A DNA stretch of 64,000 nucleotides from an uncultured Burkholderiales bacterium. Lineage in GTDB: Bacteria > Pseudomonadota > Gammaproteobacteria > Burkholderiales > Burkholderiaceae_C. This document shows, one piece after another, positions 17,848-42,640 of this stretch (position 1 is the first letter of the stretch; each line of letters starts with the position of its first letter). The stretch is from contig CAISMH010000008.1 of assembly GCA_903886485.1 (NCBI GenBank), positions 9,448 to 73,447 on the forward strand, given 5' to 3'. Both the position numbers and the translations under genes were made by a program. The notes under the pieces are model-generated. The model saw nothing but the letters and a program-made list of their open reading frames with translations. It searched no databases and was not told where the DNA came from.

Positions 17848-17910
17848 TGCAATATAGTGCTAGACGTGCGGTTTATCGCATGTTAGTCTTCGTGCAAGCA
17901 TAATAATTCA
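17848..17910. promoter_or_regulatory. Divergent boxR / DUF4863-boxD promoter with degenerate TGCA-N6-TGCA boxes
   Basis: TGCA-N6-TGCT 17848-61, TGCG-N6-CGCA 17867-80, AGCA-N6-TTCA 17897-910; plus-strand TAGACG-N17-TAGTCT with extended TG. Confidence 0.6.
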
Positions 17911-17921
17911 TGTTGGAGCGT

Positions 17922-18422: not shown

Positions 18423-18433
18423 AGAAAGTCCCC

Positions 18434-19996: not shown

Positions 19997-20027
19997 CACC
20001 ACACAGCATCGACTTGGAGGAGACAAC

Positions 20028-22420: not shown

Positions 22421-22439
22421 ATAAAACCAGGAGACAACC

Positions 22440-23609: not shown

Positions 23610-23621
23610 CTGAGTACCTTG

Positions 23622-24500: not shown

Positions 24501-24510
24501 GGACAAGCCC

Positions 24511-28070: not shown

Positions 28071-28086
28071 CTAGGGAAAGTCCTAG
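28071..28086. promoter_or_regulatory. 16-bp palindromic site CTAGG-N6-CCTAG (copy 2)
   Basis: CTAGGGAAAGTCCTAG upstream of the couA-like gene. Confidence 0.5.
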
Positions 28087-28113
28087 GCGTCGATTTCGGT
28101 TCACGCTCTCACA

Positions 28114-28138
28114 ATAACGTTATAAAAAATAACCTTAT
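28114..28138. promoter_or_regulatory. Probable CouR-type MarR operator in the AT-rich couA promoter
   Basis: GTTATA-aaa-AATAAC 28119-28133 (one mismatch from GTTATA-N3-TATAAC), embedded in ATAACGTTAT / ATAACCTTAT repeats. Confidence 0.65.
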
Positions 28139-28160
28139 AAACAGATTGAACGGAACCGAT

Positions 28161-28967
28161 ATGACCACGACTCACCATCCTTCGATTGAACGTGCGCGCA
28201 CGACTGGCGTCTCGCTGGAGATGCAAGGCGCTGTCGCGGTTGTTCGGCTGTGTCGTCCAAGTAAGCGCAACGCGCTGAGTGATGCCTTGATTGAAGCGCT
28301 GCGCGATGTGTTTCAAAACTTACCGCCTGAAGCTCGCGCTGCTGTCATCCATGGTGAGGGTGAGCACTTCTGTGCTGGCTTGGATTTGTCGGAACTCAAA
28401 GAGCGCGATGCAGGCGAAGGCGTCCACCACTCTCGCAGTTGGCATGTGGCCTTGGAAGCCTTGCAATATGGCCGCGTGCCTGTGATCGCCGCCTTGCATG
28501 GCGCTGTCGTAGGTGGGGGTTTAGAACTGGCTTCAGCCACCCACATTCGTGTCGCGGACGACAGCACTTTCTATGCATTGCCTGAGGGAACGCGTGGCAT
28601 CTTTGTGGGGGGCGGTGGCTCAGTCCGCGTCCCCAAACTGATTGGTGTGGCACGCATGACAGACATGATGCTCACTGGTCGTGTTTACAACGCGCAAGAC
28701 GGTGAGCGTTTGGGATTTGCCCAATACCTCGTTCCGGCAGGTGAATCGTTGGCCAAGGCCATCGCGTTGGCCGAGCGCATTGCCACCAATGCCCCACTGA
28801 CCAACTACGCACTCATCCACGCGCTGCCGCGCATTGCCGAGCAGCCCGCAGACCACGGCTTCTTGACCGAGGCCTTGATGTCATCCATCGCGCAATCAGC
28901 GCCCGAAGCCAAAGCGCGAGTCCGCGCCTTCTTGGAGGGCAAGGCCCCCAAGGTCAGCAAAGACTGA
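28161..28967 (+). CDS. couA: CouA-like enoyl-CoA hydratase/lyase (hydroxycinnamoyl-CoA)
   Basis: KRNALSD, HFCAGLDLSEL.ERDAGEGVHHSRSWH, ALPEGTRGIFVGGGGSVR, MMLTGRVY; closely resembles R. palustris CouA as recalled. Confidence 0.8.
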   Translation: MTTTHHPSIERARTTGVSLEMQGAVAVVRLCRPSKRNALSDALIEALRDVFQNLPPEARAAVIHGEGEHFCAGLDLSELKERDAGEGVHHSRSWHVALEALQYGRVPVIAALHGAVVGGGLELASATHIRVADDSTFYALPEGTRGIFVGGGGSVRVPKLIGVARMTDMMLTGRVYNAQDGERLGFAQYLVPAGESLAKAIALAERIATNAPLTNYALIHALPRIAEQPADHGFLTEALMSSIAQSAPEAKARVRAFLEGKAPKVSKD

Positions 28968-29024
28968 CGCTGAACCCTACACCTCTAAAAAAAATTGCCA
29001 CTGAGCAAACGAGGAGACAAACAC

Positions 29025-30878
29025 ATGCACTCAGCCAAATTTCGTCCGTTGAAGTTTGGTGTCACACGCGTCAGCTTGCGTGATGGCCCCCAAGGCACTC
29101 ATTACCTCAAGGCAGATCAAGCCTTGCAAGATTTCCCAGATCGGTTGAGCGACCGCTTGCGTCACTGGGCGCAAGCAGCGCCCGAACGCACCTTGTTTGC
29201 ACGTCGTGTCAAACAAACCGATGGCAGCCTTGGGGATTGGCGTCACATCAGCTATCAAGAAGCTTGGTTGAACGCGCGCAACATAGCCCAAGGCTTGTTG
29301 GACCGCGGCTTGAACGCCGAGCGTCCAGTCGCCATCCTGAGCGAAAACAGCTTAGAGCATGCCTTGTTGGCATTGGGCTGCATGCTGGCGGGCGTACCCT
29401 TTGTTCCAACGTCGCCTCCTTACTCATTGGTGAGCGTGGACTACGACAAGCTCAAGCATGTGCTGAAGACGGTCACGCCAGGCCTGATATTTGCGCAAGA
29501 CGCGCGCTATGCCAAAGCCATTCAAGCCACTGTGGGACATGACACCGAAGTGGTCTTGCATGAGGGGCACATCGCAGACCGAGCGACCACCCGTTTTTCC
29601 CAACTCTGTGCCACCGCTGCAAGCGATGCGGTCGACAAAGCCATGGCTGCGACAGGCCCCGACACCATCGTTAAATTTCTGTTCACCAGCGGCTCGACCA
29701 AACTGCCCAAAGCAGTGATCAACACCAACCGTCTGTGGTGTGCCAATCAGCAGCAAATGAGCCAATCCATGCCCGTGCTTTCAGAACCCCCGTTGGTGCT
29801 GGTGGACTGGCTGCCATGGAACCACACATTTGGTGGCAATCACAACTTCGGCATGGTGCTATTTCACGGCGGCACGCTCTACATCGACGACGGCAAACCC
29901 ACCCCAGCCCTCATTCATGAAACCTTGCGCAATTTGCGCGACGTCGCGCCCACCGTTTACTTCAATGTGCCCACCGGCTACGAGGCGATTGCCAACGCCA
30001 TGAAGACCGATGACGCATTGCGTCAAAACTTTTTGTCACGCGTGAAGATGTTTTTTTACGCAGGTGCGGCATTGGCTCAACCTGTGTGGGACAGCTTATA
30101 TGAAAGCGAAGAACGCGAAATCGGCGAACGCATTGTGATGACCTCGGGTCTTGGCATGACCGAATCTGGCCCCTTTGGTTTGTTCGTCACCAGCCCCCAT
30201 GTGCGCGCTGGCGACTTGGGCGTGCCAACACCCGGCATGGAGCTCAAACTGGTGGACAGCGACGGCAAAACCGAGGTGCGCTACCGCGGCCCCAACATCA
30301 CACCCGGCTACTGGCGCGCCCCCAAAGAAACCGCAGAGGCCTTTGATGAAGAAGGCTTCTTCAAAACAGGCGATGCGGTGAAATGGATCGACGAAACCGA
30401 TGTGCATTTGGGTCTGAAGTTCGATGGGCGGATTGCCGAAGACTTCAAACTCGCCACCGGCACATTTGTCAGCGTAGGGCCCCTGCGCAGCAAGATCATT
30501 GCGGCAGGCGCGCCCTACATACAAGACGTGGTGCTCACAGGCATCAACCTCAAAGAGGTGGGCGCCATGGTCTTCACCACCCCCAAGGTACGCGAGCTCT
30601 CAGGGTTGCCTGAGCAAGCGCCTTTGGCTGATGTATTGGCCACGCCCGTTGTACTGGCTAAGTTTCAACAAGTGATCAACGCGCTATCAGCCAGCAGCAC
30701 CGGCAGCGCCAACCGCATTGCCCGCATGTGCTTGTTGAGCGAACCGCCCACCATTGACAAGGGTGAGATCACGGACAAAGGCTCCATCAACCAACGCTCT
30801 GTGTTGCATCACCGTGCCGACACTGTCGCTGCCTTGCATGAAGATCGCTTGCACTACATCCTCAAACCACAGGCTTAA
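29025..30878 (+). CDS. couB: Feruloyl/p-coumaroyl-CoA synthetase (Fcs/CouB family)
   Basis: GAGGAG RBS; FTSGSTKLPKAV, DWLPWNHTFGGNH, YIDDGKP, FDGRIAEDFKL.TGTFV, EITDKGSINQ. Confidence 0.9.
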   Translation: MHSAKFRPLKFGVTRVSLRDGPQGTHYLKADQALQDFPDRLSDRLRHWAQAAPERTLFARRVKQTDGSLGDWRHISYQEAWLNARNIAQGLLDRGLNAERPVAILSENSLEHALLALGCMLAGVPFVPTSPPYSLVSVDYDKLKHVLKTVTPGLIFAQDARYAKAIQATVGHDTEVVLHEGHIADRATTRFSQLCATAASDAVDKAMAATGPDTIVKFLFTSGSTKLPKAVINTNRLWCANQQQMSQSMPVLSEPPLVLVDWLPWNHTFGGNHNFGMVLFHGGTLYIDDGKPTPALIHETLRNLRDVAPTVYFNVPTGYEAIANAMKTDDALRQNFLSRVKMFFYAGAALAQPVWDSLYESEEREIGERIVMTSGLGMTESGPFGLFVTSPHVRAGDLGVPTPGMELKLVDSDGKTEVRYRGPNITPGYWRAPKETAEAFDEEGFFKTGDAVKWIDETDVHLGLKFDGRIAEDFKLATGTFVSVGPLRSKIIAAGAPYIQDVVLTGINLKEVGAMVFTTPKVRELSGLPEQAPLADVLATPVVLAKFQQVINALSASSTGSANRIARMCLLSEPPTIDKGEITDKGSINQRSVLHHRADTVAALHEDRLHYILKPQA

Positions 30879-30890
30879 AGAAAGAAGAAC

Positions 30891-32153
30891 ATGGCTTCCA
30901 AAGGATTTTTCAACGCATTTGCCGATGTCTGGATGCACGAAGGTGTGCGCACCCCCATGGTGGACTATTGCGGTGCACTCGGCCACATTTCGCCCACAGA
31001 TCTCGGCATCAAAGCCGCACGTGAAGCCTTGAAGCGCGCGGGCATTGCCCCCACGGAGATCGACTCAGTCATCACGGGCAACATGGCGCCCGGTGACTTT
31101 GACCAGTTCTTCTTGCCACGTCACATCGGTCTGTATGCCGGTGTCCCGCAAGAAGTGCCGGCCATCATGGCGCAGCGCATTTGCGGCACGGGCTTTGAGT
31201 TGTTTCGCCAAGCGGGTGAGCAAATTGAAGCAGGGGTCTGTGATGCGGCGTTGGTGGTAGGCACCGAAAGCATGACGCGTAACCCCATCGCCTCCTTTGA
31301 GCACCGCAGCGGCTTCAAACTCGGCGCACCTGTGGGTTTCAAAGACTACATGTGGGAAGCCCTCAAAGACCCAGCCGCTGGCATCAACATGATTCAGACG
31401 GCCGAGAATTTGGCGAAGAAATACAACATCACCCGTGAAGAAGTTGACCAATTTGCCTCGGACTCATTTGCCAAAGCAGTGGCGGCTCAGGAGGCTGGTT
31501 TTCATGCGGGTGAGATCGTGCCCGTGGTCACAGAAAAATTTGAGCTCGAGGGCTACAAATCCCGTGGCATCAAACTGCAAGGCAAGGTCACAGAAGTGCA
31601 TGCAGATACACATGCCCGCATCTCACCACCAGAAGTGCTGGCCAAACTCAAGCCGGTGTATGAAGGCGGCGTGCAAACGGGCGGCAACAGCGCAGCCTTG
31701 GTGGATGCGGCAGCGGCCTGTGTGGTGACGTCTGGCGCCTATGCCAAAGCTCACGGCAAGAAGCCCATGGCACGGGTGGTGGCTGCTGCGTCGGTGGGTG
31801 TCCCCCCTGAGGTCATGGGCATTGGCCCAGCTCCTGCCATACGCTTGCTTTTAGAACGTACAGGGTTGCAACTGTCGGACATTGATCGCTTTGAAATCAA
31901 CGAGGCTCAAGGTGCACAGACCTTGGCGGTCGCGCGTGAGCTGGGTCTTAACTTGTCCAAACTCAACGTCAACGGCGGTGCCATCGCGTTGGGTCACCCA
32001 CTGGCCTGCACAGGCGTGCGGTTGACCATCACACTGGCGCGCGAACTCCAACGCAGCGGTCTGCGCTACGGCATCTCCAGCGCCTGCGTGGGGGGTGGAC
32101 AAGGCATTGCGCTGCTGATCGAAAACCCACAAGGGTCTCGTGGCAACGCGTAG
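30891..32153 (+). CDS. Acyl-CoA thiolase (degradative type)
   Basis: QRICGTG, GTESMT, NEAQ, GGAIALGHP, CVGGGQG. Confidence 0.92.
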   Translation: MASKGFFNAFADVWMHEGVRTPMVDYCGALGHISPTDLGIKAAREALKRAGIAPTEIDSVITGNMAPGDFDQFFLPRHIGLYAGVPQEVPAIMAQRICGTGFELFRQAGEQIEAGVCDAALVVGTESMTRNPIASFEHRSGFKLGAPVGFKDYMWEALKDPAAGINMIQTAENLAKKYNITREEVDQFASDSFAKAVAAQEAGFHAGEIVPVVTEKFELEGYKSRGIKLQGKVTEVHADTHARISPPEVLAKLKPVYEGGVQTGGNSAALVDAAAACVVTSGAYAKAHGKKPMARVVAAASVGVPPEVMGIGPAPAIRLLLERTGLQLSDIDRFEINEAQGAQTLAVARELGLNLSKLNVNGGAIALGHPLACTGVRLTITLARELQRSGLRYGISSACVGGGQGIALLIENPQGSRGNA

Positions 32154-32219
32154 GGGTTTCGTAAAAACCCCGAGCTTGGCTAAGCAGGTAGACATCCACA
32201 ATCATTCAAAGAAATCTTT

Positions 32220-33005
32220 ATGAACATTCAAGGACAAGCAGCATTGGTGACGGGCGCAGGCTCCGGCCTCGGTGAAGCCACCGCACGCGAACTGGCCCGC
32301 TTGGGCGCGAAGGTCGGCGTACTCGACCTCCACCTAGACAACGCACAGCGCGTGGCCAACGACTTGTGCGCGCTTTATGGCAAAGGCGCTGCGGTGGCTG
32401 TGTCGTGCAATGTGTCTGATCCAGACAGCATGGCCCAGGCCATCGACACAGCGGCAGCGGCACACGGCCCTGCGCGAATCTTGATGCAAATCGCCGGCAT
32501 CGGCACCTCCAAACGCGTGGTGGGCAAAGACGGCAACGCTGCCCCCTTAGAAGACTTCATTCAAGTGATCAACGTCAACTTGGTGGGCACCTACAACGCA
32601 GCACGTTTGTTTGCAGCGGCAGCAGCCAAGCTCGACCCCCTCGAAGACGGCGAGCGTGGTGTGATGGTGTGGACGGCATCCGTGGCTGCCTTTGACGGGC
32701 AAGTGGGTCAACAAGCCTACAGCGCCTCCAAAGCTGGCGTGGTTGGCATGACGCTGCCCATGGCGCGTGATTTGGCAAAACACGGCATCCGCGTCTGCAC
32801 CATCGCACCAGGTTTGTTTGCCACGCCCCTCATGAAAACGCTACCCGAGCCTGTGCAAGCGTCGCTGGCTGCGAGCATTCCATTTCCGACACGGTTGGGT
32901 AAGCCCGAGGAATTTGCGCAACTCGCAGCACACATCGTGAGCAACACACACCTCAATGGCGAAGTGATCCGCTTAGACGGCGCACTGCGCATGGCGCCTC
33001 GCTGA
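32220..33005 (+). CDS. SDR, 3-hydroxyacyl-CoA dehydrogenase type-2 (HSD17B10-like)
   Basis: TGAGSGLG, NVNLVGT, ASVAAFDGQVGQQAYSASK, LNGEVIRLDGALRM. Confidence 0.9.
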   Translation: MNIQGQAALVTGAGSGLGEATARELARLGAKVGVLDLHLDNAQRVANDLCALYGKGAAVAVSCNVSDPDSMAQAIDTAAAAHGPARILMQIAGIGTSKRVVGKDGNAAPLEDFIQVINVNLVGTYNAARLFAAAAAKLDPLEDGERGVMVWTASVAAFDGQVGQQAYSASKAGVVGMTLPMARDLAKHGIRVCTIAPGLFATPLMKTLPEPVQASLAASIPFPTRLGKPEEFAQLAAHIVSNTHLNGEVIRLDGALRMAPR

Positions 33006-33098
33006 AAAAATCATGAACACCCATCTTCATCACCTGATGCACGCCCTGTCTAACGATGGGGCGCGGCCTTCTTCAGATCAGTTCTACGGAGCACAGCC

Positions 33099-33518
33099 AT
33101 GACCAAAACAGTGGTTTACGAAGTTGAAATCATGTTCGGTGACTGCGATCCAGCAGGCATCGTCTTCTTCCCCAATTACTCCAAATGGATGGACGCTTCA
33201 TCGCTGAACTTCTTTGTGAAGTGCGGTGTACCGACTTGGCGCGAGTTGGTCAAAACCACCGGCATCATCGGCACACCCCTGCTGGAGATCAACACCAAAT
33301 TCATGCGCCCTGCCACCTACGGTGAACGCATTCAAATTCACACCAGCATTCATGAGTGGCGTGAAAAAGTTGTGATCCAAAAGCATGTGGTCATGCGTGG
33401 CGACACCGTGCTGTGCGAAGGGTTTGAAACCCGCGCGTTCTGTATCAAGCACCCGGACGACCCTGACCGTATCAAAGCCATTCCTGTGCCTGCGGACATC
33501 CAAGCTTTGTGTTCTTAA
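33099..33518 (+). CDS. Acyl-CoA thioesterase (4-hydroxybenzoyl-CoA thioesterase family)
   Basis: FGDCDPAGIVFFPNY hot-dog motif. Confidence 0.9.
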   Translation: MTKTVVYEVEIMFGDCDPAGIVFFPNYSKWMDASSLNFFVKCGVPTWRELVKTTGIIGTPLLEINTKFMRPATYGERIQIHTSIHEWREKVVIQKHVVMRGDTVLCEGFETRAFCIKHPDDPDRIKAIPVPADIQALCS

Positions 33519-33558
33519 TTTTCCCTGCAACCTTTCCAACGATAACTAGGAGACAACC

Positions 33559-34692
33559 ATGAACTTCAAGAAGACTCTCGTGACCCTCGCCGCCACCGTG
33601 GCGTGCTCTGCCGCATTGGCTGACATCAACATCGGTGTCATCTTGCCGCTGACAGGCCCAGCCTCTGGTTTGGGCATTCCAGCAAAAAACCAAATTGCGC
33701 TGTGGCCCACCAGCATTGCCGGTGAAAAACTCAACGTCACCGTGTTGGACGATGCGACTGACCCCACCAACGGTGTGAAGAATGCACGTCGTTTCGTGAC
33801 CGAAGACAAGGTGGATTTGCTCGTTGGCTCAGTGGCGACCCCCGTGGGTGTGGCCATTGCAGATGTGGCCTTGGAGACCAAAACACCACAACTGGCGCTC
33901 ACACCCATTGGCTTGCCTGCGGGCAAAGACGCCTACACCTTTCGCATGCCTCAATCCAACGGCGTGATGGCCACGGCCATCGTCAACCACATGCAAAAGC
34001 TGGGTGTGAAAACCGTGGGTTTCTTGGGCTACACAGACGCTTATGGTGAGCAATGGTTGCAAGCCTTCACCCCCTTGGCCGAAAAAGCAGGCATCAAAAT
34101 CGTGGGTGTAGAGCGCTTTGCACGCACCGACACCAGCGTGACGGGCCAAGCCCTCAAACTCGTCTCGGCGAATCCCGATGCGGTGCTCATCGTGGCCTCT
34201 GGTAGCGGGGCTGCCATGCCACACAAAGGCATTGTGGAACGTAACTTCAAAGGGAAGATTTACCAAACCCATGGTGCAGCCTCTAAAGACTTGATGCGCG
34301 TGGGTGGCAAAGACGTGGAAGGCGCCTTTGTTGTGGGCGGTCCCGTGATTGTTCCTTACCAATTGCCTGACAGCAATCCATCTAAAAAAATTGCCATTGC
34401 CTTTGCTGACAAATACGACAAGGCCTATGGCGTTGGCACGCATAACCAATTCGCGGGTCACGCACACGATGTGATCGTGGTGCTGGAAAAAGCCATTCCT
34501 CTGGCTTTGAAAAAGGCCAAACCAGGGACTCCCGAATTTCGCACTGCGCTGCGTGATGCTTTAGAAACCATGGGTCGCACCGTGGTGGCGCACGGCACAC
34601 TGAATTGGACCAAAGAAGACCACTGGGGTTACACGCCAGACACCGGCGTGATGCTCAAAGTGGTGGATGGTCAATTCACCGTCGCACCTTAA
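33559..34692 (+). CDS. ABC substrate-binding protein (CouP-like phenylpropanoid binder)
   Basis: Signal peptide; TGPASGLGIP, DDATDPT, AFVVGGPV. Confidence 0.85.
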   Translation: MNFKKTLVTLAATVACSAALADINIGVILPLTGPASGLGIPAKNQIALWPTSIAGEKLNVTVLDDATDPTNGVKNARRFVTEDKVDLLVGSVATPVGVAIADVALETKTPQLALTPIGLPAGKDAYTFRMPQSNGVMATAIVNHMQKLGVKTVGFLGYTDAYGEQWLQAFTPLAEKAGIKIVGVERFARTDTSVTGQALKLVSANPDAVLIVASGSGAAMPHKGIVERNFKGKIYQTHGAASKDLMRVGGKDVEGAFVVGGPVIVPYQLPDSNPSKKIAIAFADKYDKAYGVGTHNQFAGHAHDVIVVLEKAIPLALKKAKPGTPEFRTALRDALETMGRTVVAHGTLNWTKEDHWGYTPDTGVMLKVVDGQFTVAP

Positions 34693-34709
34693 TCACGTTT
34701 GCGAGCCCC

Positions 34710-34744
34710 AACGCTCAACAGGGTTGACCTGTTGAGCGTTTTGT
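34710..34744 (+). terminator. Hairpin after the SBP gene (partial terminator or stabiliser)
   Basis: AACGCTCAACAGG/CCTGTTGAGCGTT 13-bp perfect stem followed by TTGT. Confidence 0.65.
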
Positions 34745-34759
34745 AAAAAGAGAGACGAC

Positions 34760-35800
34760 ATGGACTTTTCAATCGCCAGCATTTTGATGTTGGACGGAAT
34801 GACAAACGGTGCGATTTATGCCCTCTTGGGTTTAGCCACTGTTTTGGTGTTTACCGTCACACGCGTCATCTTTATTCCACAGGGCGAGTTTGTAGCTTTT
34901 GGTGCGTTGACCATGGCCATGCTGCAAGCAGGGCTGGTGCCGGGCACGGTGTGGTTGCTCATGCTGCTGTCTGTCCTTGCTGCCTTGATGGAATGCTGGA
35001 GTCGTTGGAGCCATGATCGCAATTTGATACACGGCATGAAGTCCGCGCTCATCATGGCGACACCGTCTTTGTTGATTGCCTGTGTCACGGTATGGGCTGC
35101 GCCGCAAAATTTTCCCATGCCCGTGCAAGCACTCCTGAGCATCGCGGTGGTCGCCGCGTTTGGGCCGTTGGTCTATCGCATCGCCTATCAGTCGTTAGAG
35201 TCAGCCACGCCACTGGTGTTGCTCATCGTGTCAGTGGGCGTGCATTTCGCGATGACAGGCTTGGGTTTGTTGTTCTTTGGTGCGGAAGGTTTTCGCAACC
35301 CCAGTTTCTTGAATGAGAGTTGGGCCATGGGCCCCATCCACATCACAGGCCAAGTGGTCATCATCTTCACCACGGCACTGTTGCTCATCGCAGCGTTGTG
35401 GATGTTTTTTGAACGCACCTTGTTTGGCAAGGCCTTGCGGGCCACGGCGGTCAACCGCACTGGCGCGCGCTTGATGGGCATTTCTACCCACACAGCAGGT
35501 CAGTTCACCTTCTTATTGGCCGCAGGCATTGGTGCGGTGTCGGGCTTGTTGATTGGCCCCACCACCACCGTCTTTTACGACTCTGGTTTTTTGATTGGTC
35601 TCAAAGGCTTTGTAGCTGCCGTGGTGGCAGGTTTGTCTAGCTACCCAGGCGCTTTGATCGGCGCTTTGTTCGTCGGTGTTGTGGAATCGTTTGGCTCATT
35701 CTGGGCCAGCGCTTTCAAAGAGGTGATTGTGTTCACCTTGATCTTGCCTGTGTTGCTGTGGCGTTCGCTCACGAGTGGCCATTCTGATGAGGAGCATTGA
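34760..35800 (+). CDS. HAAT ABC permease
   Basis: [44 protein letters not shown]. Confidence 0.9.
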
Positions 35801-35801
35801 A

Positions 35802-37556
35802 ATGCGCCGCTGGTTATTGATCTTCGCCTTGGTCCCTTTGGTGGCTGCGTTGCCTCTGCCTGACTTTTGGATTTTTCAACTCAACTACATCGGCCTTTAC
35901 GCCATGACATGTATGGGCTTGGTCTTGCTCACAGGCGTGTCGGGTTTGACGTCGTTTGGCCAAGCTGCTTTTGTTGGCATTGGCGCCTACACCAGCGCAT
36001 GGCTCACGCTCAACATGGGTTGGTCGCCTTGGCTGACCCTGTGGGTGGGCTTAGGCCTGACCTTTGTGAGCGCTTTGCTGGTGGGCCTGATCACGCTGCG
36101 CATGTCGGGGCACTATCTGCCGTTGGCCACCATTGCTTGGGGTTTGTCGCTGTATTACCTCATGGGCAATATGGACGCTTTGGGCAAATATGACGGTCTG
36201 CTGGGCGTTCAAACCCTCTCACTCTTTGGCTTCGACTTGGGCCAAGGTCGTCCCTTCTTCATGCTGACTTGGTTCATCTTGTTTGCCTCAGCGTTGTGCA
36301 TGACCCAGTTGCTTGACTCGCGCGCTGGCCGTGCGATTCGCTCACTCAAAAATGGCACGCAAATGGCTGAAGCGATGGGCATCAACACTTTTCGCTACAA
36401 AGTCACCGCATTTGTCATGGCTGCCTTGTTCGCGTCCGTGGCGGGTTGGTTGTTGGCTCACTTCCAACGCACGGTGAACCCATCGGCTTTCGGTTTGAAG
36501 ATGGGCATTGAGTACTTGTTCATGGCCGTGGTCGGCGGTGTGGGGCACGTCTGGGGTGCTGTTGTCGGTGCAGGGTTGATCAAATTGATGGATGACTATT
36601 TGCAAGTCATGTTGCCCAAACTCATTGGCACCAGCGGCAGCTACGAAATGATTGTGTTTGGCATTTTGTTGGTACTCGTGCTGAAGTACTTGCCAGATGG
36701 TCTTTGGTCTCTGGTCGCGCGCTACATGCCTCGACGTGACCGTGAAGTCAACTGGGCCAACGCTGGTCAACTGCCAGAAACGCACAAGCCTCAGCACGGC
36801 GAACTCTTGCTCGACGTACAAGACATTCGTAAACAGTTTGGCGGCTTGGTGGCGGTCAACGACATTCGCTTTCAAATCAAGGCGGGCGAAATCGTAGGTT
36901 TGATCGGCCCCAATGGCGCAGGCAAATCGACCACCTTCAATCTCATCACTGGCGTATTGCCTCTGACATCAGGGGTGGTGAAGTTCCGTCAAGACACCAT
37001 CAGCGGCTTGCCCTCACGGGAAATTTTGCGCAAGGGCATGGCACGCACCTTCCAACACGTGAAGATGATTCCCGACATGACCGTGCTGGAAAACGTGGCC
37101 ATCGGCGGCTACAGCCGCGGTCACACCGGTGTGTGGTCCGGCATGCTGGGCACCAACCAAGAAGAAGAGAAACGACTCTTCAAACTGGCCCAACAGCAGC
37201 TAGAACGTGTGGGCATGGGGCATACCCTGCACGAAGCCGCTGGCAACTTGGCCATGGGCCAACAACGCCTGATGGAAATTGCCCGCGCCTTGTGTGCCGA
37301 CCCCACCTTGCTGCTGCTCGATGAACCTGCGGCTGGTTTACGCCACAAAGAAAAACAAGGTCTCGCCGATGTGCTGCGTCAGCTGCAAGGCGAAGGCGTG
37401 AGCATCTTGCTGGTGGAACACGACATGGATTTGGTCATGCAAGTTTGCGACAAATTGGTGGTGATGGAGTTCGGCACCTTGCTGCTCGAAGGCACGCCCC
37501 AAGAAATTCAAGAAAGCCCCGTAGTGCGCGCCGCCTACTTGGGTACCGAACACTAA
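35802..37556 (+). CDS. Fused HAAT ABC permease-ATPase
   Basis: N-terminal LivM-like TM region; C-terminal [22 protein letters not shown]. Confidence 0.92.
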
Positions 37557-37566
37557 GGACAAGGCC

Positions 37567-38298
37567 ATGACCACGCCCCTTCTCGACATACGAGACCTCC
37601 ACGCCGGATACGGCAAAGCCGAAGTGCTGCACGGCATCCATCTGCACGCGAATGCCAGCCAAGTGATCACCGTGATTGGCCCCAATGGCGCAGGCAAGAC
37701 GACCCTGCTCAACACCTTGATGGGTCTGCTGCCAACCAAAGGGCACATGTTTTACCGTGGCGAAGACATCAGTGGCTGCACACTGGAAGAGCGCGTGATG
37801 CTTGGCATTGCCTTGGTCCCCGAAAAACGGGAGCTGTTTGGCACCATGACCGTGGAGGACAACCTTGAGCTTGGCGGCTTTCGCCAAATGCGCAAGGGCA
37901 ATTTGCAATGGCGCCAACGCATGGATGATGTGTATGACATCTTCCCTCGCCTCAAAGAACGTCGCTTGCAACAAGCGGGCACGCTTTCGGGCGGTGAACG
38001 CCAAATGTTGGCCGTTGGCCGTGCCATGATGTCGCGCCCCGATGTGTTGATGTTGGACGAGCCGAGCCTCGGCTTGGCGCCACTCATCGTGAAAGAAATT
38101 TTCTCCATCATCGAAACCCTGCGCAAAACTGGCGTGACCATCGTGCTGGTCGAGCAAAACGCACGCGCAGCTCTGGCTGTGGCCGACTTCGGCTATGTGC
38201 TCGAAATGGGAGAAGTCAGCTTGTATGGTCCCGCTACCGAGTTGGCACAAGACAACCGTGTGATCGACACCTACTTGGGCGCCACGCGCAAGGATTGA
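37567..38298 (+). CDS. HAAT ABC ATPase (LivF-like)
   Basis: GPNGAGKTT, LSGGERQ, LDEPSLGLAP. Confidence 0.93.
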   Translation: MTTPLLDIRDLHAGYGKAEVLHGIHLHANASQVITVIGPNGAGKTTLLNTLMGLLPTKGHMFYRGEDISGCTLEERVMLGIALVPEKRELFGTMTVEDNLELGGFRQMRKGNLQWRQRMDDVYDIFPRLKERRLQQAGTLSGGERQMLAVGRAMMSRPDVLMLDEPSLGLAPLIVKEIFSIIETLRKTGVTIVLVEQNARAALAVADFGYVLEMGEVSLYGPATELAQDNRVIDTYLGATRKD

Positions 38299-38303
38299 AA
38301 ACT

Positions 38304-40037
38304 ATGCACAACTACCAACCGCAATTGGACGATGTTCAATTTGTTCTGCACAACGTGTTGCACGCGCCAAAGCGTATTGCAGCACTCAGCCCCTACCGCG
38401 AAGTCGACGCCGACTTGATGCATCAAATTCTGGAAGAAAGCGGCAAGTTCATCGCTGAACAAATTGCCCCACTCAACCCGGTGGGCGATCATGTCGGTGC
38501 GCACTTCAAGGACGGTGCTGTCACCATGCCACCCGGTTTCAAGGATGCGTACCAAGCGTTTTGGCAAGCTGGTTGGGCATCGCTGTGCACCGCCACTGAC
38601 GATGGCGGACAAGGTTTGCCCGCGGTGCTGGAGAGTGTGCTCTACGAATGGCTGTCGGCTGCCAACCATGGCTGGACCATGGCCCCCGGTTTGTTGCATG
38701 GTGCGTATGAGTGCATCAAGCATCACGCCAGTGACGCCCTCAAAGCGCAATACCTCCACAAAGTAGGCACCGGCGAGTGGCTGGCCACCATGTGCTTGAC
38801 CGAACCTCATGCGGGCAGCGATTTGGGGCTCGCTTCCACCAAAGCGGTGCCGCAAACCGATGGTGCGTATTTGATTTCAGGCACCAAGATTTTCATCAGC
38901 GGTGGTGAACACGACTTGACCGACAACATCGTTCACCTCGTCCTGGCCCGATTGCCGGATGCACCGGCTGGCCCCAAAGGTTTGTCACTCTTTTTAGTGC
39001 CCAAGTTTTACGCCGACGGCTCGCGCAGTGCGGTGTACTGCGACCGCATTGAAGAAAAAATGGGCATCCACGCCAGCCCCACCTGTGTGATGCGGTTCGA
39101 CGAGGCACGCGCATGGTTGGTGGGTGACCTAGGTCGCGGATTGAATGCCATGTTTGTGATGATGAATGCCGCCCGCTTGCATGTGGCCTTGCAGGGCGTG
39201 GGCTTGCTTGACGCGGCTTGGCAAAAAGCCAACGCCTACGCACATGAACGTCGTCAAATGCGAGCGCCGCGCTCAAAAGTCGCTTCTCCCAATGAGAACC
39301 AAGGAAAAGGATCTGCCCCCGCAGACCTCATCATTGAACACCCTGCCGTGCGCCGCATCTTGGACACGCAACGCGCGTGGATCGATGGTGCACGCGTTCT
39401 AGCCTACGAAACAGGCTTGGCTCTCGACGAAGCCAAGCACCACCCAGACGAGTCGCAACGCGAAGCGGCGCAACGATGGTGCGCACTCATCACGCCCATC
39501 CTCAAAGCCTCTTGCACGGACCAAGGCTTTCATGGCGCGAGCGAATGCTTGCAGGTGTTTGGAGGCCACGGCTATGTGAGCGAATGGGGTGTTGAACAAA
39601 ACGTGCGCGATGCGCGCATTGCCATGATTTATGAAGGCACCAACGAAATCCAAGCCGTTGACTTATTGATGCGAAAAGTAGTGAGCGATGGCGGTATGGC
39701 CTTGAATGCCATGCTGGACTCACTCGCGCAGCACTTGTCGGAGACCAAACCCCATGAAGCGCAAGTGTTGCATCTGTTCAAACGACTCAAAGCCACGACG
39801 CAAATGTGCGTGACTTGCGCACCACAAGCAGATGGTCATGTGCGATTGAGTTGGATTGCAGGCGACTTTCTGCGATTGGCTACTTTGGCTTTGCTCGCTT
39901 GGAGTTGGACGCGCATTGAATCCGCCAATGGCAGCGACACACTGCGTTGGCAAGCCCCTGCAAACGCTTTGCGTGCTTGGGTCTTGCCAGAGTTCGACAT
40001 GCGCTCTGGCATGATTGAGACTCAGCTCGGACAGTGA
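38304..40037 (+). CDS. Acyl-CoA dehydrogenase (long, DmdC-like architecture)
   Basis: MCLTEPHAGSDLG, GTKIFISGGEHD, EEKMGIHASPT, QVFGGHGY, IYEGTNEIQA. Confidence 0.92.
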   Translation: MHNYQPQLDDVQFVLHNVLHAPKRIAALSPYREVDADLMHQILEESGKFIAEQIAPLNPVGDHVGAHFKDGAVTMPPGFKDAYQAFWQAGWASLCTATDDGGQGLPAVLESVLYEWLSAANHGWTMAPGLLHGAYECIKHHASDALKAQYLHKVGTGEWLATMCLTEPHAGSDLGLASTKAVPQTDGAYLISGTKIFISGGEHDLTDNIVHLVLARLPDAPAGPKGLSLFLVPKFYADGSRSAVYCDRIEEKMGIHASPTCVMRFDEARAWLVGDLGRGLNAMFVMMNAARLHVALQGVGLLDAAWQKANAYAHERRQMRAPRSKVASPNENQGKGSAPADLIIEHPAVRRILDTQRAWIDGARVLAYETGLALDEAKHHPDESQREAAQRWCALITPILKASCTDQGFHGASECLQVFGGHGYVSEWGVEQNVRDARIAMIYEGTNEIQAVDLLMRKVVSDGGMALNAMLDSLAQHLSETKPHEAQVLHLFKRLKATTQMCVTCAPQADGHVRLSWIAGDFLRLATLALLAWSWTRIESANGSDTLRWQAPANALRAWVLPEFDMRSGMIETQLGQ

Positions 40038-40071
40038 TTCGAGATCCGTTTCAAAATTTTTCATCACCTCC

Positions 40072-40578
40072 ATGAGTACCCCAGCCGTTCGTCGAGTTTG
40101 CGCCTCGCGTCAAACCACTGAATCACCCCCAGATGCTTCAAATGAAGCAAGTGGAACCGCCTATCTAGAGACTTTGCTCGGCTACAACGCCAGTCGTGCG
40201 TCGCACACCTTGATCTCGCATTTCATTCGAGGCGTGGGCTCGTTTGATTTGCGTACCGTGGACTTCTCAGTGCTGTCTGTGATTGGGCATCGCCCCGGTG
40301 TGACTTCTCGCCAACTGTGTCAACAGCTCAATGTGCTGCCGCCCAACATGGTGGTGTTGCTGCGTGAGCTCGACAAACGCGGCCTGATTGAACGCCAGCC
40401 CCACCCGACAGACAAACGCGCAGTGGGCTTGCTGCTCAGCACGCGTGGCAAGGCCTTGATGAAAAAAGCAGAGAAAGCGGCCAGTGCAGCCGATTTAGAA
40501 GGTTCGGCGAACCTCAGCCCTGCGGAGCGCAAAACTCTGACGCGCTTGCTGCAAAAAATCTACGTTGTCGCGGCTTGA
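40072..40578 (+). CDS. MarR regulator, CouR/FerR-like
   Basis: LETLLGYNASRA, FSVLSVIGHRPG, LDKRGLIERQPHPTDKRA; last gene of the cou-like operon; start uncertain. Confidence 0.82.
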   Translation: MSTPAVRRVCASRQTTESPPDASNEASGTAYLETLLGYNASRASHTLISHFIRGVGSFDLRTVDFSVLSVIGHRPGVTSRQLCQQLNVLPPNMVVLLRELDKRGLIERQPHPTDKRAVGLLLSTRGKALMKKAEKAASAADLEGSANLSPAERKTLTRLLQKIYVVAA

Positions 40579-40604
40579 ATTGGCCGCGACAACCCAAGGC
40601 GCAA

Positions 40605-42515: not shown

Positions 42516-42564
42516 GTTTTGTCTCCAGCCATTGAAAAAACGCCGAAAGTTCGGCACTGGACAA

Positions 42565-42619
42565 ATGATAACTATGCTTATTATTTTTTGTCAAGACAGT
42601 ATGTATGATTACTAAATCA
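42565..42619. promoter_or_regulatory. mobA promoter and candidate MobR operator
   Basis: Minus-strand TTGACA-N18-TATCAT (42594 to 42565); TGATT-acta-AATCA inverted repeat 42606-42619. Confidence 0.55.
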
Positions 42620-42640
42620 GATTATCTTGGAGCAATAGGC

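What the first reader, a model, noticed from the sequence alone, without database searches (positions are those of the whole stretch)
28071..40578. Phenylpropanoid operon that pairs CouAB with a full beta-oxidation set, next to a box pathway
Seen: one co-oriented run of couA-like crotonase, couB-like CoA ligase, thiolase, HSD10-like SDR, thioesterase, CouP-like ABC importer, acyl-CoA dehydrogenase and CouR-like MarR. Known: R. palustris CouAB shortens p-coumarate non-oxidatively (retro-aldol to the aldehyde) and needs no thiolase or dehydrogenase. Inference: this operon could run an oxidative route: arylpropionate to CoA ester, desaturation, hydration, oxidation, then thiolysis to (hydroxy)benzoyl-CoA plus acetyl-CoA. 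Unsubstituted benzoyl-CoA could enter the adjacent BoxABC pathway with no further ATP cost. The result would be a self-contained lignin-monomer/humic-acid funnel, a capacity not usually attributed to planktonic freshwater Comamonadaceae.
Basis: partly seen in the sequence, partly recalled or inferred. Interest (0 to 1): 0.72.

Follow-up and report, generated by a model that had tools for sequence, protein, structure and literature searches.

The report
Lake bacterium operon for plant phenylpropanoid breakdown
A Limnohabitans-like lake bacterium carries one regulated operon that imports plant-derived cinnamic-type acids and shortens their side chain on CoA; every part has known relatives, so it is a sound annotation and not a new kind of system.

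Summary
Window 28161-40578 (+) holds eleven tightly spaced genes: CouA-type crotonase, Fcs/CouB-type CoA ligase, thiolase, HSD10-type 3-hydroxyacyl-CoA dehydrogenase, 4-hydroxybenzoyl-CoA-thioesterase homologue, CouPSTU-like ABC importer, long acyl-CoA dehydrogenase and MarR. A complete box/benzoate-CoA-ligase cluster lies upstream.

The core (crotonase, ligase, thioesterase, importer, MarR) is orthologous to the Rhodopseudomonas palustris cou cluster. It shares a promoter palindrome, GTTAT-N5-ATAAC, found upstream of the crotonase in 64 of 82 related loci. Thiolase, dehydrogenase and acyl-CoA dehydrogenase are additions. Together they give the same enzyme set as the published beta-oxidative ppr cluster of Aromatoleum aromaticum EbN1.

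Across 59 Comamonadaceae species loci the ligase always accompanies the crotonase used to find the loci. Thiolase (37), dehydrogenase (50) and thioesterase (47) come and go. The thiolase never occurs without the thioesterase.

The beta-oxidative reading is plausible and is my best explanation (about 0.55). It is not shown: the crotonase is 62% identical to CouA, which acts as a hydratase/lyase in vivo.

Adjacency to box is seen in only 2 of 80 loci. The binding protein keeps the residues that bind a 4-hydroxyl, and the thioesterase points to hydroxybenzoate release, not Box entry. Interest is modest.

The parts
28119..28133 (.). Probable CouR-type operator, GTTATAAAAAATAAC (palindrome GTTAT-N5-ATAAC), 28-42 bp upstream of the crotonase start, in an AT-rich stretch with a TATAAA element
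   Evidence: The only match in the window, against 0.01 expected. The same motif lies within 200 bp upstream of the crotonase in 64 of 82 loci, including R. palustris couA (GTTATAGTCTATAAC). Only 72 matches occur in all 1.42 Mb of loci.
28161..28967 (+). CouA-type crotonase (enoyl-CoA hydratase, possibly hydratase/lyase), 268 aa
   Evidence: PRK08150 at 416 bits. 62% identical to R. palustris CouA, 49% to DmdD and about 25% to a true HCHL. Both catalytic Glu residues are invariant.
29025..30878 (+). Fcs/CouB-type (hydroxy)cinnamate-CoA ligase, 617 aa
   Evidence: PRK12582 at 713 bits. 50% identical to R. palustris CouB and 49-53% to Ralstonia feruloyl-CoA synthase.
30891..32153 (+). Thiolase, proposed 3-aryl-3-oxopropionyl-CoA thiolase, 420 aa
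   Evidence: TIGR01930 at 366 bits, with Thiolase_N and Thiolase_C domains. 37% identical to the pcaF-like thiolase of the same window. Present in 37 of 59 related loci, always between the ligase and SDR/thioesterase and never without the thioesterase.
32220..33005 (+). HSD10-type (type II) 3-hydroxyacyl-CoA dehydrogenase, SDR, 261 aa
   Evidence: PDB 4O5O, 4XGN, 1E6W and 1U7T at E 1e-65 to 1e-71. 54% identical to the SDR beside the feruloyl-CoA synthase on Rhizobium sp. TH2 plasmid pTH2a. Present in 50 of 59 loci.
33099..33518 (+). Hotdog thioesterase, homologue of 4-hydroxybenzoyl-CoA thioesterase, 139 aa
   Evidence: 1BVQ at E 3e-37, aligned end to end at 47% identity, with Asp17 conserved. 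40% identical to the 139-aa thioesterase between couB and couP in R. palustris. Present in 47 of 59 loci.
33559..34692 (+). CouP-like periplasmic binding protein, 377 aa
   Evidence: 3UK0, 3TX6 and 4JB0 at E 1e-96 to 1e-100. The five CouP ligand hydrogen-bond residues are conserved as T94, R189, S214, Q297 and H301 (alignment; residues named in PMC3610893).
34760..35800 (+). ABC permease (CouS-like), 346 aa
   Evidence: BPD_transp_2 domain. 54-55% identical to the R. palustris permease of the cou cluster.
35775..37556 (+). Fused permease-ATPase (CouT-like), 593 aa
   Evidence: BPD_transp_2 plus ABC_tran plus BCA_ABC_TP_C domains. 52% identical to the 590-aa fused protein of R. palustris.
37567..38298 (+). 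ABC ATPase (CouU-like), 243 aa
   Evidence: LivF-like. 56% identical to the R. palustris ATPase.
38304..40037 (+). Long acyl-CoA dehydrogenase, proposed 3-arylpropionyl-CoA dehydrogenase, 577 aa
   Evidence: PDB 8PNS, 8PU5 and 8R1E (FadE-like) at E 1e-133 to 1e-136, and 6IJC at E 2e-124. Present in about 21 of 35 related loci in which the MarR end is visible (my count from the listing).
40072..40578 (+). MarR-family regulator, CouR-like, 168 aa
   Evidence: Best solved relative is R. palustris CouR 6C28 at E 9e-16. 34% identical to the MarR at the end of the R. palustris cluster. A MarR was recognised in 35 of 59 loci, and many ABC-containing loci end before it.
40564..40593 (.). G+C-rich hairpin between the converging MarR and hydroxylase genes, the likely end of the transcription unit
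   Evidence: Stem of 11 pairs with 8 G-C pairs; the strongest terminator-like site in 27800-43200. Pattern match only.
12269..21623 (.). Context: boxA (12269-13543 -), boxB (13566-14993 -), boxC (15081-16748 -), BoxR-type regulator (16923-17852 -), PnbB-family gene (17910-18422 +), boxD (18434-19996 +), benzoate-CoA ligase (20028-21623 +)
   Evidence: Equivalog models score far above their cut-offs. PnbB family PF16155.
21620..28005 (+). Context: alpha/beta hydrolase, a second HAAT-type ABC importer (22440-26974) and a zinc-ADH/quinone-oxidoreductase-family gene (26971-28005)
   Evidence: High-identity copies upstream of the crotonase occur only in L002 and L075.
40605..43081 (.). Context: MobA-type 3-hydroxybenzoate 4-hydroxylase (40605-42557 -) and a second MarR (42605-43081 +)
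   Evidence: 2DKH at E 4e-213 over the full length. NCBIfam PRK08294 at 948 bits. Not found in any related locus.

Best explanation
This is a CouR-type repressed operon of a Limnohabitans-like Comamonadaceae. It imports phenylpropanoid acids (p-coumarate, ferulate, caffeate, more weakly cinnamate, and their dihydro forms) and removes a C2 unit from the side chain on CoA.

Proposed steps:
1. The CouPSTU-like ABC system takes up the acid.
2. The Fcs/CouB-type ligase makes the CoA thioester. That thioester probably also releases the MarR from the GTTAT-N5-ATAAC operator.
3. The long ACAD desaturates saturated 3-arylpropionyl-CoA.
4. The CouA-type crotonase hydrates the enoyl-CoA.
5. The HSD10-type SDR oxidises the 3-hydroxy intermediate.
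6. The thiolase cleaves it to acetyl-CoA plus aroyl-CoA.
7. The 4-hydroxybenzoyl-CoA-thioesterase homologue frees hydroxybenzoates for ring hydroxylation. Any unsubstituted benzoyl-CoA can go to Box.

The crotonase may also cleave 4-hydroxylated intermediates directly to the aldehyde, as CouA does, so both routes may coexist.

Shown here: gene identities, orthology to the cou core, the conserved operator, the conserved module structure and its wide spread. Inferred: substrates, inducer, order of reactions, and which route carries the flux.
For: Orthology of the core:
- Gene-by-gene orthology to the R. palustris cou cluster, including the thioesterase in the same position.
- The operator motif is shared with R. 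palustris, occurs almost only at this promoter, and is unique in the window.

Substrate class:
- All five CouP ligand-contact residues are conserved.
- Tannase/feruloyl-esterase genes sit inside the cluster in five related loci.

Beta-oxidative module:
- The five enzymes needed are present and match the EbN1 ppr set. There, transcripts, proteins and metabolites up to 4-hydroxybenzoyl-CoA were detected and 4-hydroxybenzoate was exported (PMC9765128).
- The SDR is a bona fide 3-hydroxyacyl-CoA dehydrogenase type. It is 54% identical to the SDR partnered with Fcs and a CouA-type crotonase in Rhizobium, in the A. fabrum-like order (PMC7797058).
- The thioesterase is 47% identical to a characterised 4-hydroxybenzoyl-CoA thioesterase with its catalytic Asp.
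- The thiolase co-occurs with the thioesterase in 37 of 37 loci (Fisher p 6e-7, not corrected for phylogeny).
- The ligase-thiolase-SDR-thioesterase block recurs at 48% ligase identity.
- The full thiolase+SDR+thioesterase set is the commonest architecture, in 33 of 59 loci.

Expression: a freshwater metatranscriptome holds contigs 90-95% alike over most of the cluster.
Against: - The crotonase is 62% identical to CouA. R. palustris overexpressing couBA, with a yeast ADH2 and three aldehyde dehydrogenase genes deleted, converts ferulate to about 100% vanillyl alcohol. That is lyase activity in vivo (PMC10612212).
- Crotonase plus ligase occur without SDR or thiolase in 4-5 of 59 loci. The presence and absence states are scattered among near-identical crotonases. 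The oxidative module is therefore dispensable or replaceable.
- The thioesterase also sits in the R. palustris cluster, which has no thiolase, so it is not diagnostic of thiolysis.
- In Pseudomonas fcs-ech-vdh clusters a thiolase and an ACAD lie alongside and are reported to be non-essential for ferulate use. This is from my own knowledge and was not checked here.
- No enzyme assay, mutant or substrate-specific expression data exist for this lineage.
- Sequence orthology to the EbN1 Ppr proteins and to Atu1415-1421 could not be tested.
Confidence: 0.55

Rival explanations
1. The route is purely non-oxidative, as in R. palustris. The ligase and crotonase (hydratase/lyase) give hydroxybenzaldehyde plus acetyl-CoA, and an unlinked aldehyde dehydrogenase makes the acid. 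The ACAD only feeds in dihydro-cinnamates, as HcaD does in Acinetobacter. The thiolase, SDR and thioesterase are accessory or act on other CoA esters.
For: - 62% identity to CouA, a shared cluster core and a shared operator.
- CouA yields aldehydes in vivo.
- Crotonase plus ligase are the only invariant enzymes, and some sister genomes lack SDR and thiolase.
- Aldehyde dehydrogenase is unlinked in R. palustris too (RPA1206), so its absence here is not an argument against this rival.
Against: - Three extra genes with exactly the chemistry of the next three beta-oxidative steps are inserted between the ligase and the thioesterase. They are kept in most of 59 species at 77-95% identity.
- The SDR has an orthologue partnered with Fcs and a crotonase in Rhizobiaceae.
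- To my knowledge the retro-aldol route needs a 4-hydroxyl, so it could not handle cinnamate or 3-substituted substrates.
Confidence: 0.25
2. The route is beta-oxidative deacetylation of the A. fabrum/RHA1 kind. Ligase, hydratase and SDR make the beta-keto thioester, and the hotdog thioesterase or another hydrolase releases the aromatic acid. The thiolase is a redundant add-on.
For: - Loci with crotonase, ligase, SDR and thioesterase but no thiolase are common (9 of 59).
- A Rhizobium plasmid carries SDR-Fcs/crotonase-MarR in the A. fabrum order.
- The pathway is described in PMC7797058 and PMC4737184.
Against: - When the thiolase is present it is the most conserved gene of the block, at 83-95% identity, and is strictly tied to the thioesterase.
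- The thioesterase resembles an aroyl-CoA thioesterase, not a carbon-carbon hydrolase.
- No amidohydrolase of the CouO kind is in the window.
Confidence: 0.12
3. The operon is not an aromatic pathway. It could be a DmdBCD-like methylmercaptopropionate (DMSP demethylation) route or a general fatty-acid or dicarboxylate beta-oxidation operon.
For: - The crotonase is 49% identical to DmdD.
- The ACAD matches 6IJC at E 2e-124. I recall this entry as DmdC; the name was not checked here.
- JGI names some homologues (methylthio)acryloyl-CoA hydratase.
- A PRK08150 crotonase sits in a non-Fcs context on a Massilia plasmid.
Against: - The ligase is Fcs-type, not DmdB-type.
- The binding protein keeps every CouP aromatic-ligand contact.
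- The thioesterase is a 4-hydroxybenzoyl-CoA thioesterase homologue.
- A CouR-type operator is shared with R. palustris.
- Feruloyl esterases lie in related loci.
- The crotonase is closer to CouA than to DmdD.
Confidence: 0.03

Closest known systems
Rhodopseudomonas palustris cou cluster (couA, couB, thioesterase in the RPA1788 position, couPSTU, couR)
   Same: - Orthologous crotonase (62%), ligase (50%), 139-aa thioesterase (40%), binding protein (45%, all ligand contacts kept), permeases and ATPases (52-56%, including the fused permease-ATPase) and MarR (34%).
- The order crotonase-ligase-...-thioesterase-binding protein is the same.
- The promoter palindrome GTTAT-N5-ATAAC is the same.
   Different: - The window has a thiolase and an HSD10-type SDR inserted between the ligase and the thioesterase, and an ACAD before the MarR.
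- It has no TarPQM TRAP system, DUF3237 gene or GGDEF gene.
- All its genes are co-oriented.
- R. palustris is reported to use the non-oxidative lyase route (PMC3610893, PMC10612212).
Aromatoleum aromaticum EbN1 ppr cluster (pprF, A, C, E, D, B; ebA5316-5321)
   Same: - Same enzyme set in one cluster: binding protein, feruloyl-CoA-synthase-type ligase, enoyl-CoA hydratase, thiolase next to a 3-hydroxyacyl-CoA dehydrogenase, and an ACAD.
- It lies beside a benzoate/3-phenylpropanoate ABC transporter.
- It is a betaproteobacterium.
- The route to 4-hydroxybenzoyl-CoA is supported by transcripts, proteins and metabolites, under both oxic and anoxic conditions (PMC9765128 and its supplement).
   Different: - Its regulator is TetR-type (PprR), not MarR.
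- No thioesterase is listed among pprA-F.
- The gene order differs.
- Sequence-level orthology was not tested here because no EbN1 sequences could be reached.
Agrobacterium fabrum SpG8-1b region (Atu1415-Atu1422), beta-oxidative deacetylation of ferulate
   Same: - Feruloyl-CoA synthase, enoyl-CoA hydratase, a dehydrogenase for the 3-hydroxy thioester, and a MarR repressor (HcaR) released by hydroxycinnamoyl-CoA (PMC7797058, PMC10458429).
- A Rhizobium plasmid with the same gene order carries an SDR 54%, a crotonase 55% and a ligase 44% identical to the window's.
   Different: [quoted passage not shown]
- No ABC importer or ACAD is described for it.
- The comparison is indirect. It runs through a Rhizobium plasmid, not through Atu sequences.
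fcs-ech-vdh clusters of Pseudomonas, Acinetobacter (hca) and Ralstonia (non-beta-oxidative)
   Same: Fcs-type ligase (49-53% to Ralstonia) and MarR-type control.
   Different: - Their crotonase is HCHL, only about 25% identical to the window's.
- Vanillin/benzaldehyde dehydrogenase genes are adjacent there. None is near the operon here: the only aldehyde dehydrogenase match in the window is boxD.
Rhodococcus jostii RHA1 cou genes
   Same: CoA-dependent beta-oxidative side-chain shortening of p-hydroxycinnamates under a MarR (CouR) that binds p-coumaroyl-CoA (PMC4737184).
   Different: - The last step uses an amidohydrolase-superfamily enzyme, CouO.
- The operator is different (ATTGA-N5-TCAAT).
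- RHA1 CouR (5CYV) is only a weak match to the window's MarR, at E 9e-5.

Membership tests
R. palustris-type cou cluster | CouA-type (PRK08150, non-HCHL) crotonase next to an Fcs/CouB-type ligase | tested here: met
   62% and 50% identity to the proteins of the R. palustris locus L082, with adjacent genes. About 25% to HCHL.
R. palustris-type cou cluster | CouP-type binding protein with the phenylpropenoate contacts (Thr102, Arg197, Ser222, Gln305, His309), plus CouSTU | tested here: met
   All five contacts are conserved (T94, R189, S214, Q297, H301). The membrane and ATPase parts are 52-56% identical, including the fused permease-ATPase.
R. palustris-type cou cluster | MarR repressor CouR acting at the couA promoter | tested here: met
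   CouR is the best solved relative (E 9e-16). The 15-bp palindrome is shared with the R. palustris couA promoter and conserved in 64 of 82 loci. Binding itself was not tested.
R. palustris-type cou cluster | Release of the repressor by p-coumaroyl-CoA | not testable with these tools
   Needs EMSA or reporter assays.
R. palustris-type cou cluster | The crotonase acts as a hydratase/lyase giving the aldehyde | not testable with these tools
   Both catalytic Glu residues are present. Nothing in the sequence separates a hydratase from a lyase. The window's enzyme is 62% identical to CouA and 55% to the SDR-partnered Rhizobium enzyme.
A. aromaticum ppr-type beta-oxidative phenylpropanoid cluster | Ligase, ACAD, enoyl-CoA hydratase, 3-hydroxyacyl-CoA dehydrogenase and thiolase encoded together with a binding protein | tested here: met
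   All six functions are present by family assignment.
A. aromaticum ppr-type beta-oxidative phenylpropanoid cluster | Sequence orthology to PprA-F | not tested
   No EbN1 sequence could be reached. The single genome scan returned only the 80 closest Comamonadaceae.
A. aromaticum ppr-type beta-oxidative phenylpropanoid cluster | TetR-type repressor PprR | tested here: not met
   The regulator here is a MarR.
A. aromaticum ppr-type beta-oxidative phenylpropanoid cluster | Substrate-specific induction and detection of the CoA intermediates | not testable with these tools
   Only a metatranscriptome with related contigs was available.
A. fabrum SpG8-1b beta-oxidative deacetylation cluster | Fcs, enoyl-CoA hydratase, SDR dehydrogenase and a MarR (HcaR) | tested here: inconclusive
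   Met only against a Rhizobium plasmid with the described gene order (SDR 54%, crotonase 55%, ligase 44%). The Atu sequences themselves were not available.
A. fabrum SpG8-1b beta-oxidative deacetylation cluster | Linked tetrahydrofolate-dependent vanillate O-demethylase and GntR regulator | tested here: inconclusive
   No scanned ORF of the window matched such families. A few ORFs had no match at the thresholds used.
HCHL-type fcs-ech-vdh cluster | HCHL-family crotonase and an adjacent vanillin/benzaldehyde dehydrogenase | tested here: not met
   About 25% identity to Ralstonia HCHL. The only aldehyde dehydrogenase match in the window is boxD.
DmdBCD (DMSP demethylation) pathway | DmdB-type MMPA-CoA ligase together with DmdC and DmdD | tested here: not met
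   The ligase is Fcs-type (PRK12582). The crotonase is nearer to CouA than to DmdD. The transporter, thioesterase and operator point to aromatic acids.
Aerobic box pathway (context, not the finding itself) | boxA, boxB, boxC, boxD, benzoate-CoA ligase and a BoxR-type regulator | tested here: met
   Equivalog models at 728, 898, 951 and 908 bits, TIGR02262 at 799 bits and PRK08154 at 433 bits.

The most novel reading that the evidence does not exclude
The operon may sort substrates by ring substituent.
- 4-hydroxylated thioesters could be cleaved by the CouA-type crotonase itself, or thiolysed and then hydrolysed by the 4-hydroxybenzoyl-CoA-type thioesterase.
- Thioesters without a 4-hydroxyl cannot undergo retro-aldol cleavage and would be forced through the SDR and thiolase.
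- Benzoyl-CoA would then enter the neighbouring Box pathway without a second ATP.
- 3-hydroxybenzoyl-CoA would be hydrolysed and hydroxylated by the neighbouring MobA-type enzyme.

This would also explain why the same crotonase subfamily is called a lyase in R. palustris and a plain hydratase in Agrobacterium. It would make abundant planktonic Limnohabitans a sink for terrestrial phenylpropanoids.
Probability: 0.18. Interest if true: 0.55.

Novelty: new member of a known kind. Interest (0 to 1): 0.3.

Why it matters
Limnohabitans and its relatives are among the most abundant freshwater bacterioplankton. A conserved, regulated operon for hydroxycinnamates and phenylpropionates suggests they use plant- and humic-derived aromatic acids directly.
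- The 80 best loci are almost all labelled Comamonadaceae or other Burkholderiales, and include cultured Limnohabitans strains.
- In some relatives the operon sits next to feruloyl esterases.

That is a testable piece of the terrestrial-to-aquatic carbon link.

The locus also bears on a small open point of enzymology. One crotonase subfamily (PRK08150: CouA, and probably Atu1417) is assigned lyase chemistry in one organism and plain hydratase chemistry in another. Natural variants with and without the SDR/thiolase module offer ready-made comparisons.

None of this is a new kind of system. The value is annotation, ecology and a set of clean experiments.

Tried and rejected
- **Primary papers.** I tried to read those on CouAB/CouR (PMC3318492, PMC3457485, PMC6066308), A. 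fabrum (PMC4018866) and RHA1 (PMC4248857). None is held, so what they showed is cited through later open papers.
- **Genome scan.** The single genome scan with a crotonase alignment was meant to reach R. palustris and EbN1. It returned only the 80 closest Burkholderiales loci. I reached R. palustris another way, by searching with the 3HIN sequence and looking up the hit's contig. EbN1 and A. fabrum sequences stayed out of reach.
- **Linked aldehyde dehydrogenase.** I tested whether loci lacking SDR and thiolase carry a linked aldehyde dehydrogenase, which would mark the lyase route. Almost no locus of either kind has one within 10 kb, so the test is uninformative.
- **Promoter scan.** The sigma-70 consensus scan found no promoter in 28006-28160. 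The promoter is inferred only from the operator and an AT-rich TATAAA element.
- **Metatranscriptome.** Contigs of related strains cover much of the cluster. Contig depth is not expression, and no condition is attached.
- **DMSP/MMPA reading.** Considered and rejected (see the rivals).
- **Thioesterase as proof of thiolysis.** Considered and rejected, because R. palustris has the same gene without a thiolase.
- **Box and MobA adjacency as evidence of coupling.** Considered and downgraded. The benzoate-transporter and box-side adjacency is found in only 2 of 80 related loci, and MobA in none.

Full report
**What is there**

All eleven genes are on the + strand with gaps of -26 to +93 bp.

| Gene | Window coordinates | Main evidence |
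|---|---|---|
| Crotonase | 28161-28967 | NCBIfam PRK08150, 416 bits |
| Fcs-type CoA ligase | 29025-30878 | PRK12582, 713 bits |
| Thiolase | 30891-32153 | TIGR01930, 366 bits |
| SDR | 32220-33005 | type-II 3-hydroxyacyl-CoA dehydrogenases including HSD10, E 1e-65 to 1e-71 |
| Hotdog thioesterase | 33099-33518 | Pseudomonas CBS3 4-hydroxybenzoyl-CoA thioesterase, see below |
| HAAT-type binding protein | 33559-34692 | CouP family, see below |
| Permease | 34760-35800 | BPD_transp_2 |
| Fused permease-ATPase | 35775-37556 | BPD_transp_2 plus ABC_tran |
| ATPase | 37567-38298 | LivF-like |
| Long acyl-CoA dehydrogenase | 38304-40037 | FadE-like 8PNS and 6IJC |
| MarR | 40072-40578 | best solved relative R. 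palustris CouR 6C28 |

- The thioesterase aligns end to end with the Pseudomonas CBS3 enzyme at 47% identity. It keeps the catalytic Asp17; the D17N mutant entry 1LO9 marks the position.
- The listed ORFs start too early. Homologues of the crotonase are 266-268 aa, and the first Met codons give the starts in the table.
- This frees a 155-bp intergenic region, 28006-28160, so the run is a transcription unit of its own.
- A strong hairpin at 40564-40593 lies between the MarR and the converging next gene.

**Surroundings**

- Upstream lies a complete aerobic benzoyl-CoA (box) set. It comprises a pcaF-like thiolase, boxA, boxB, boxC, a BoxR-type regulator, a PnbB-family gene, boxD, benzoate-CoA ligase, a hydrolase, a second HAAT ABC importer and a zinc-ADH-family gene.
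- Downstream, converging, is a MobA-type 3-hydroxybenzoate 4-hydroxylase (2DKH, E 4e-213) with its own MarR.
- Beyond both sides are housekeeping genes: dxs, ispA, polA, thrB, uvrD, minCD.
- The window comes from a lake metagenome. One run's own assembly holds an identical 31.8-kb contig over 24000-43000.
- The nearest genomes are Limnohabitans; the crotonase is 92% identical in L002.

**Relation to the R. palustris cou cluster**

- The crotonase's best solved relative, 3HIN, is from R. palustris (PMC3660561).
- Searching with the 3HIN sequence and looking up the R. palustris hit's contig shows the gene sits in the cou cluster. The order there is TarPQM, DUF3237, crotonase (CouA), 631-aa ligase (CouB), a 139-aa 4HBT_2 thioesterase, CouP, GGDEF, CouUTS and a MarR.
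- Identities to the window's proteins are 62, 50, 40, 45, 52-56 and 34%.
- The binding protein keeps all five residues that hydrogen-bond ferulate in CouP. These include the Gln and His that hold the 4-hydroxyl (PMC3610893; alignment).
- The window is therefore a cou cluster with two insertions: thiolase plus SDR between the ligase and the thioesterase, and an ACAD before the MarR.

**A conserved operator**

- Upstream of the crotonase the window has GTTATAAAAAATAAC (28119-28133). R. palustris has GTTATAGTCTATAAC upstream of couA.
- The pattern GTTATA-N3-TATAAC, searched with up to two substitutions, lies within 200 bp upstream of the crotonase in 64 of 82 loci.
- It gives only 72 matches in 1.42 Mb of fetched loci. 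The consensus of the sites is GTTAT-N5-ATAAC.
- The exact form GTTAT-N5-ATAAC occurs once in the window, against 0.01 expected.
- I read it as the CouR-type operator. Binding and the inducer are inferred from R. palustris, A. fabrum and RHA1, where the hydroxycinnamoyl-CoA releases the repressor (PMC3610893, PMC10458429, PMC4737184).

**Spread and modularity**

The best 80 are almost all labelled Comamonadaceae or other Burkholderiales: Limnohabitans, Rhodoferax, Hydrogenophaga, Polaromonas, Variovorax, Ramlibacter, Ottowia.
- 59 loci have at least 9 kb downstream of the crotonase. The ligase is present in 59, SDR in 50, thioesterase in 47 and thiolase in 37.

| Thiolase | SDR | Thioesterase | Loci |
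|---|---|---|---|
| yes | yes | yes | 33 |
| no | yes | yes | 9 |
| no | yes | no | 8 |
| yes | no | yes | 4 |
| no | no | no | 4 |
| no | no | yes | 1 |

- The full set, as in the window, is the commonest form.
- The thiolase never occurs without the thioesterase: 37 of 37, Fisher p 6e-7, not corrected for relatedness.
- These states are scattered over a neighbour-joining tree of the crotonases, sometimes between near-identical sequences. The module has been gained or lost repeatedly without visible change in the crotonase.
- Where the ABC genes are missing, a Bug/TctC binding protein takes their place. Five loci carry a tannase/feruloyl-esterase gene inside the cluster. This independently points to hydroxycinnamates.
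- The ligase-thiolase-SDR-thioesterase block also occurs in a lineage whose ligase is only 48% identical.
- High-identity copies of the benzoate ABC genes upstream occur only in L002 and L075. MobA occurs in no other locus.

**Which route?**

For the oxidative route:
- The five enzymes needed are present and match the EbN1 ppr cluster item by item. That cluster holds pprF binding protein, pprA ligase annotated as trans-feruloyl-CoA synthase, pprC hydratase, pprE thiolase, pprD dehydrogenase and pprB ACAD.
- For ppr, transcripts, proteins and metabolites up to 4-hydroxybenzoyl-CoA were found under oxic and anoxic conditions, and 4-hydroxybenzoate was exported (PMC9765128 and supplement).
- The window's SDR is 54% identical to the SDR that lies with a feruloyl-CoA synthase and a CouA-type crotonase on a Rhizobium plasmid. 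That order is the one described for atu1415-1417, the A. fabrum genes shown to run hydration then dehydrogenation (PMC7797058).
- The strict tie between thiolase and thioesterase fits aroyl-CoA being made and then hydrolysed.

Against it:
- CouA is a lyase in vivo. R. palustris overexpressing couBA, with a yeast ADH2 and three aldehyde dehydrogenase genes deleted, turns ferulate into vanillyl alcohol at about 100% (PMC10612212).
- The window's crotonase is 62% identical to CouA and 55% to the Rhizobium enzyme. Those two are only 47% identical to each other, so homology cannot decide.
- The thioesterase is also in the thiolase-less R. palustris cluster.
- Some genomes keep only crotonase plus ligase.
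- A linked aldehyde dehydrogenase, which would mark the lyase route, is absent everywhere, including R. palustris. That test says nothing.

My reading:
- The operon is certainly a cou-type phenylpropanoid operon (about 0.9).
- The SDR and thiolase most likely act on the hydrated thioester, giving a beta-oxidative route, possibly in parallel with direct lyase cleavage of 4-hydroxylated substrates (about 0.55).

**The Box idea**

- Benzoyl-CoA from cinnamate or 3-phenylpropionate could enter Box. In EbN1 the ppr cluster also lies beside a benzoate/3-phenylpropanoate transporter.
- But the adjacency here is lineage-specific.
- The binding protein is built for 4-hydroxylated ligands: CouP binds cinnamate about 30 times more weakly than coumarate.
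- The operon carries a thioesterase of the 4-hydroxybenzoyl-CoA type.
- The main products are thus more likely 4-hydroxybenzoate or vanillate, which need ring hydroxylases and ring-cleavage genes that are not in this window.

**Novelty**

- Beta-oxidative phenylpropanoid clusters are described in EbN1, A. fabrum and RHA1, and the cou core in R. palustris.
- This locus recombines known modules in another, ecologically important lineage.
- My searches found no paper linking Limnohabitans with hydroxycinnamates. Only its Box pathway is mentioned.
- I file it as a new member of a known kind, of modest interest. The most useful follow-ups are growth tests in cultured Limnohabitans carriers and an aldehyde-versus-aroyl-CoA assay.

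Noticed in passing
window 40605-43081: A MobA-type 3-hydroxybenzoate 4-hydroxylase (2DKH, E 4e-213) with its own divergent MarR converges on the end of the operon. It would take 3-hydroxybenzoate to protocatechuate and could serve meta-hydroxylated phenylpropanoids. It is in none of the 80 related loci.
   Followed up: partly
window 17910-18422: A 170-aa gene of the PnbB family (PF16155, named for 4-hydroxylaminobenzoate lyase) sits between the BoxR-type regulator and boxD. Its role in a box cluster is unclear.
   Followed up: no
L082 1-2114 and 12871-13290 (R. palustris): The R. palustris cou cluster contains a 139-aa 4HBT_2 thioesterase between couB and couP. This is unexplained by the non-oxidative route. 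About 8 kb upstream lie a DUF35/ChsH2-like protein, an SCP2-type thiolase and an SDR, which could be an unrecognised oxidative branch, for example for cinnamate.
   Followed up: no
L054 17465-19198, L066 13128-15029, L071 15477-17273, L079 14582-16297, L080 15177-16865: Tannase/feruloyl-esterase family genes (PF07519, confirmed for L071 and L079; the others by similar sequence) are embedded in the cluster of several Comamonadaceae. This suggests use of esterified hydroxycinnamates.
   Followed up: partly
L003 16031-17032, L008 5657-6715, L030 14025-15026, L052 7595-8596, L077 12828-13820 and others: In loci without the ABC importer a Bug/TctC-family binding protein (PF03401, confirmed for L003) takes its place. 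Transport modules are swapped while the enzymes stay.
   Followed up: partly
window 10549-12054 (-): The pcaF-like 3-oxoadipyl-CoA thiolase ORF is listed with a 100-residue N-terminal extension. Homology starts at residue 102, so the real start is probably near 11751.
   Followed up: no
window 26971-28005: A zinc-ADH/quinone-oxidoreductase-family gene, with weak matches to acryloyl-CoA reductases, ends the benzoate-transporter operon just before the cou-type promoter. It is kept in L002 (79%) and was not detected in L075.
   Followed up: no
L085 (Massilia putida plasmid) 7949-15162: A PRK08150-family crotonase (54-57% identical to the window's, depending on the alignment) lies in a different context. 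Its neighbours are a 3-hydroxyacyl-CoA dehydrogenase, a non-Fcs AMP ligase, an ACAD, ETF subunits and a thioesterase, next to fumarylacetoacetate-hydrolase-like genes. The subfamily is therefore not restricted to hydroxycinnamates.
   Followed up: no
window 24000-43000, run X20: A freshwater metatranscriptome holds contigs 90-95% alike over most of the cluster. Word depth is highest over the thioesterase and binding protein, the ATPases and the ACAD. Related strains seem to express it in situ, but the conditions are unknown.
   Followed up: partly
contig of P0127 (Logan run ERR4592245; no DNA returned, so no locus id): A ligase homologue at 47% identity lies beside a crotonase with a TetR-family gene upstream. 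This recalls the TetR (PprR) control of the EbN1 ppr cluster.
   Followed up: no
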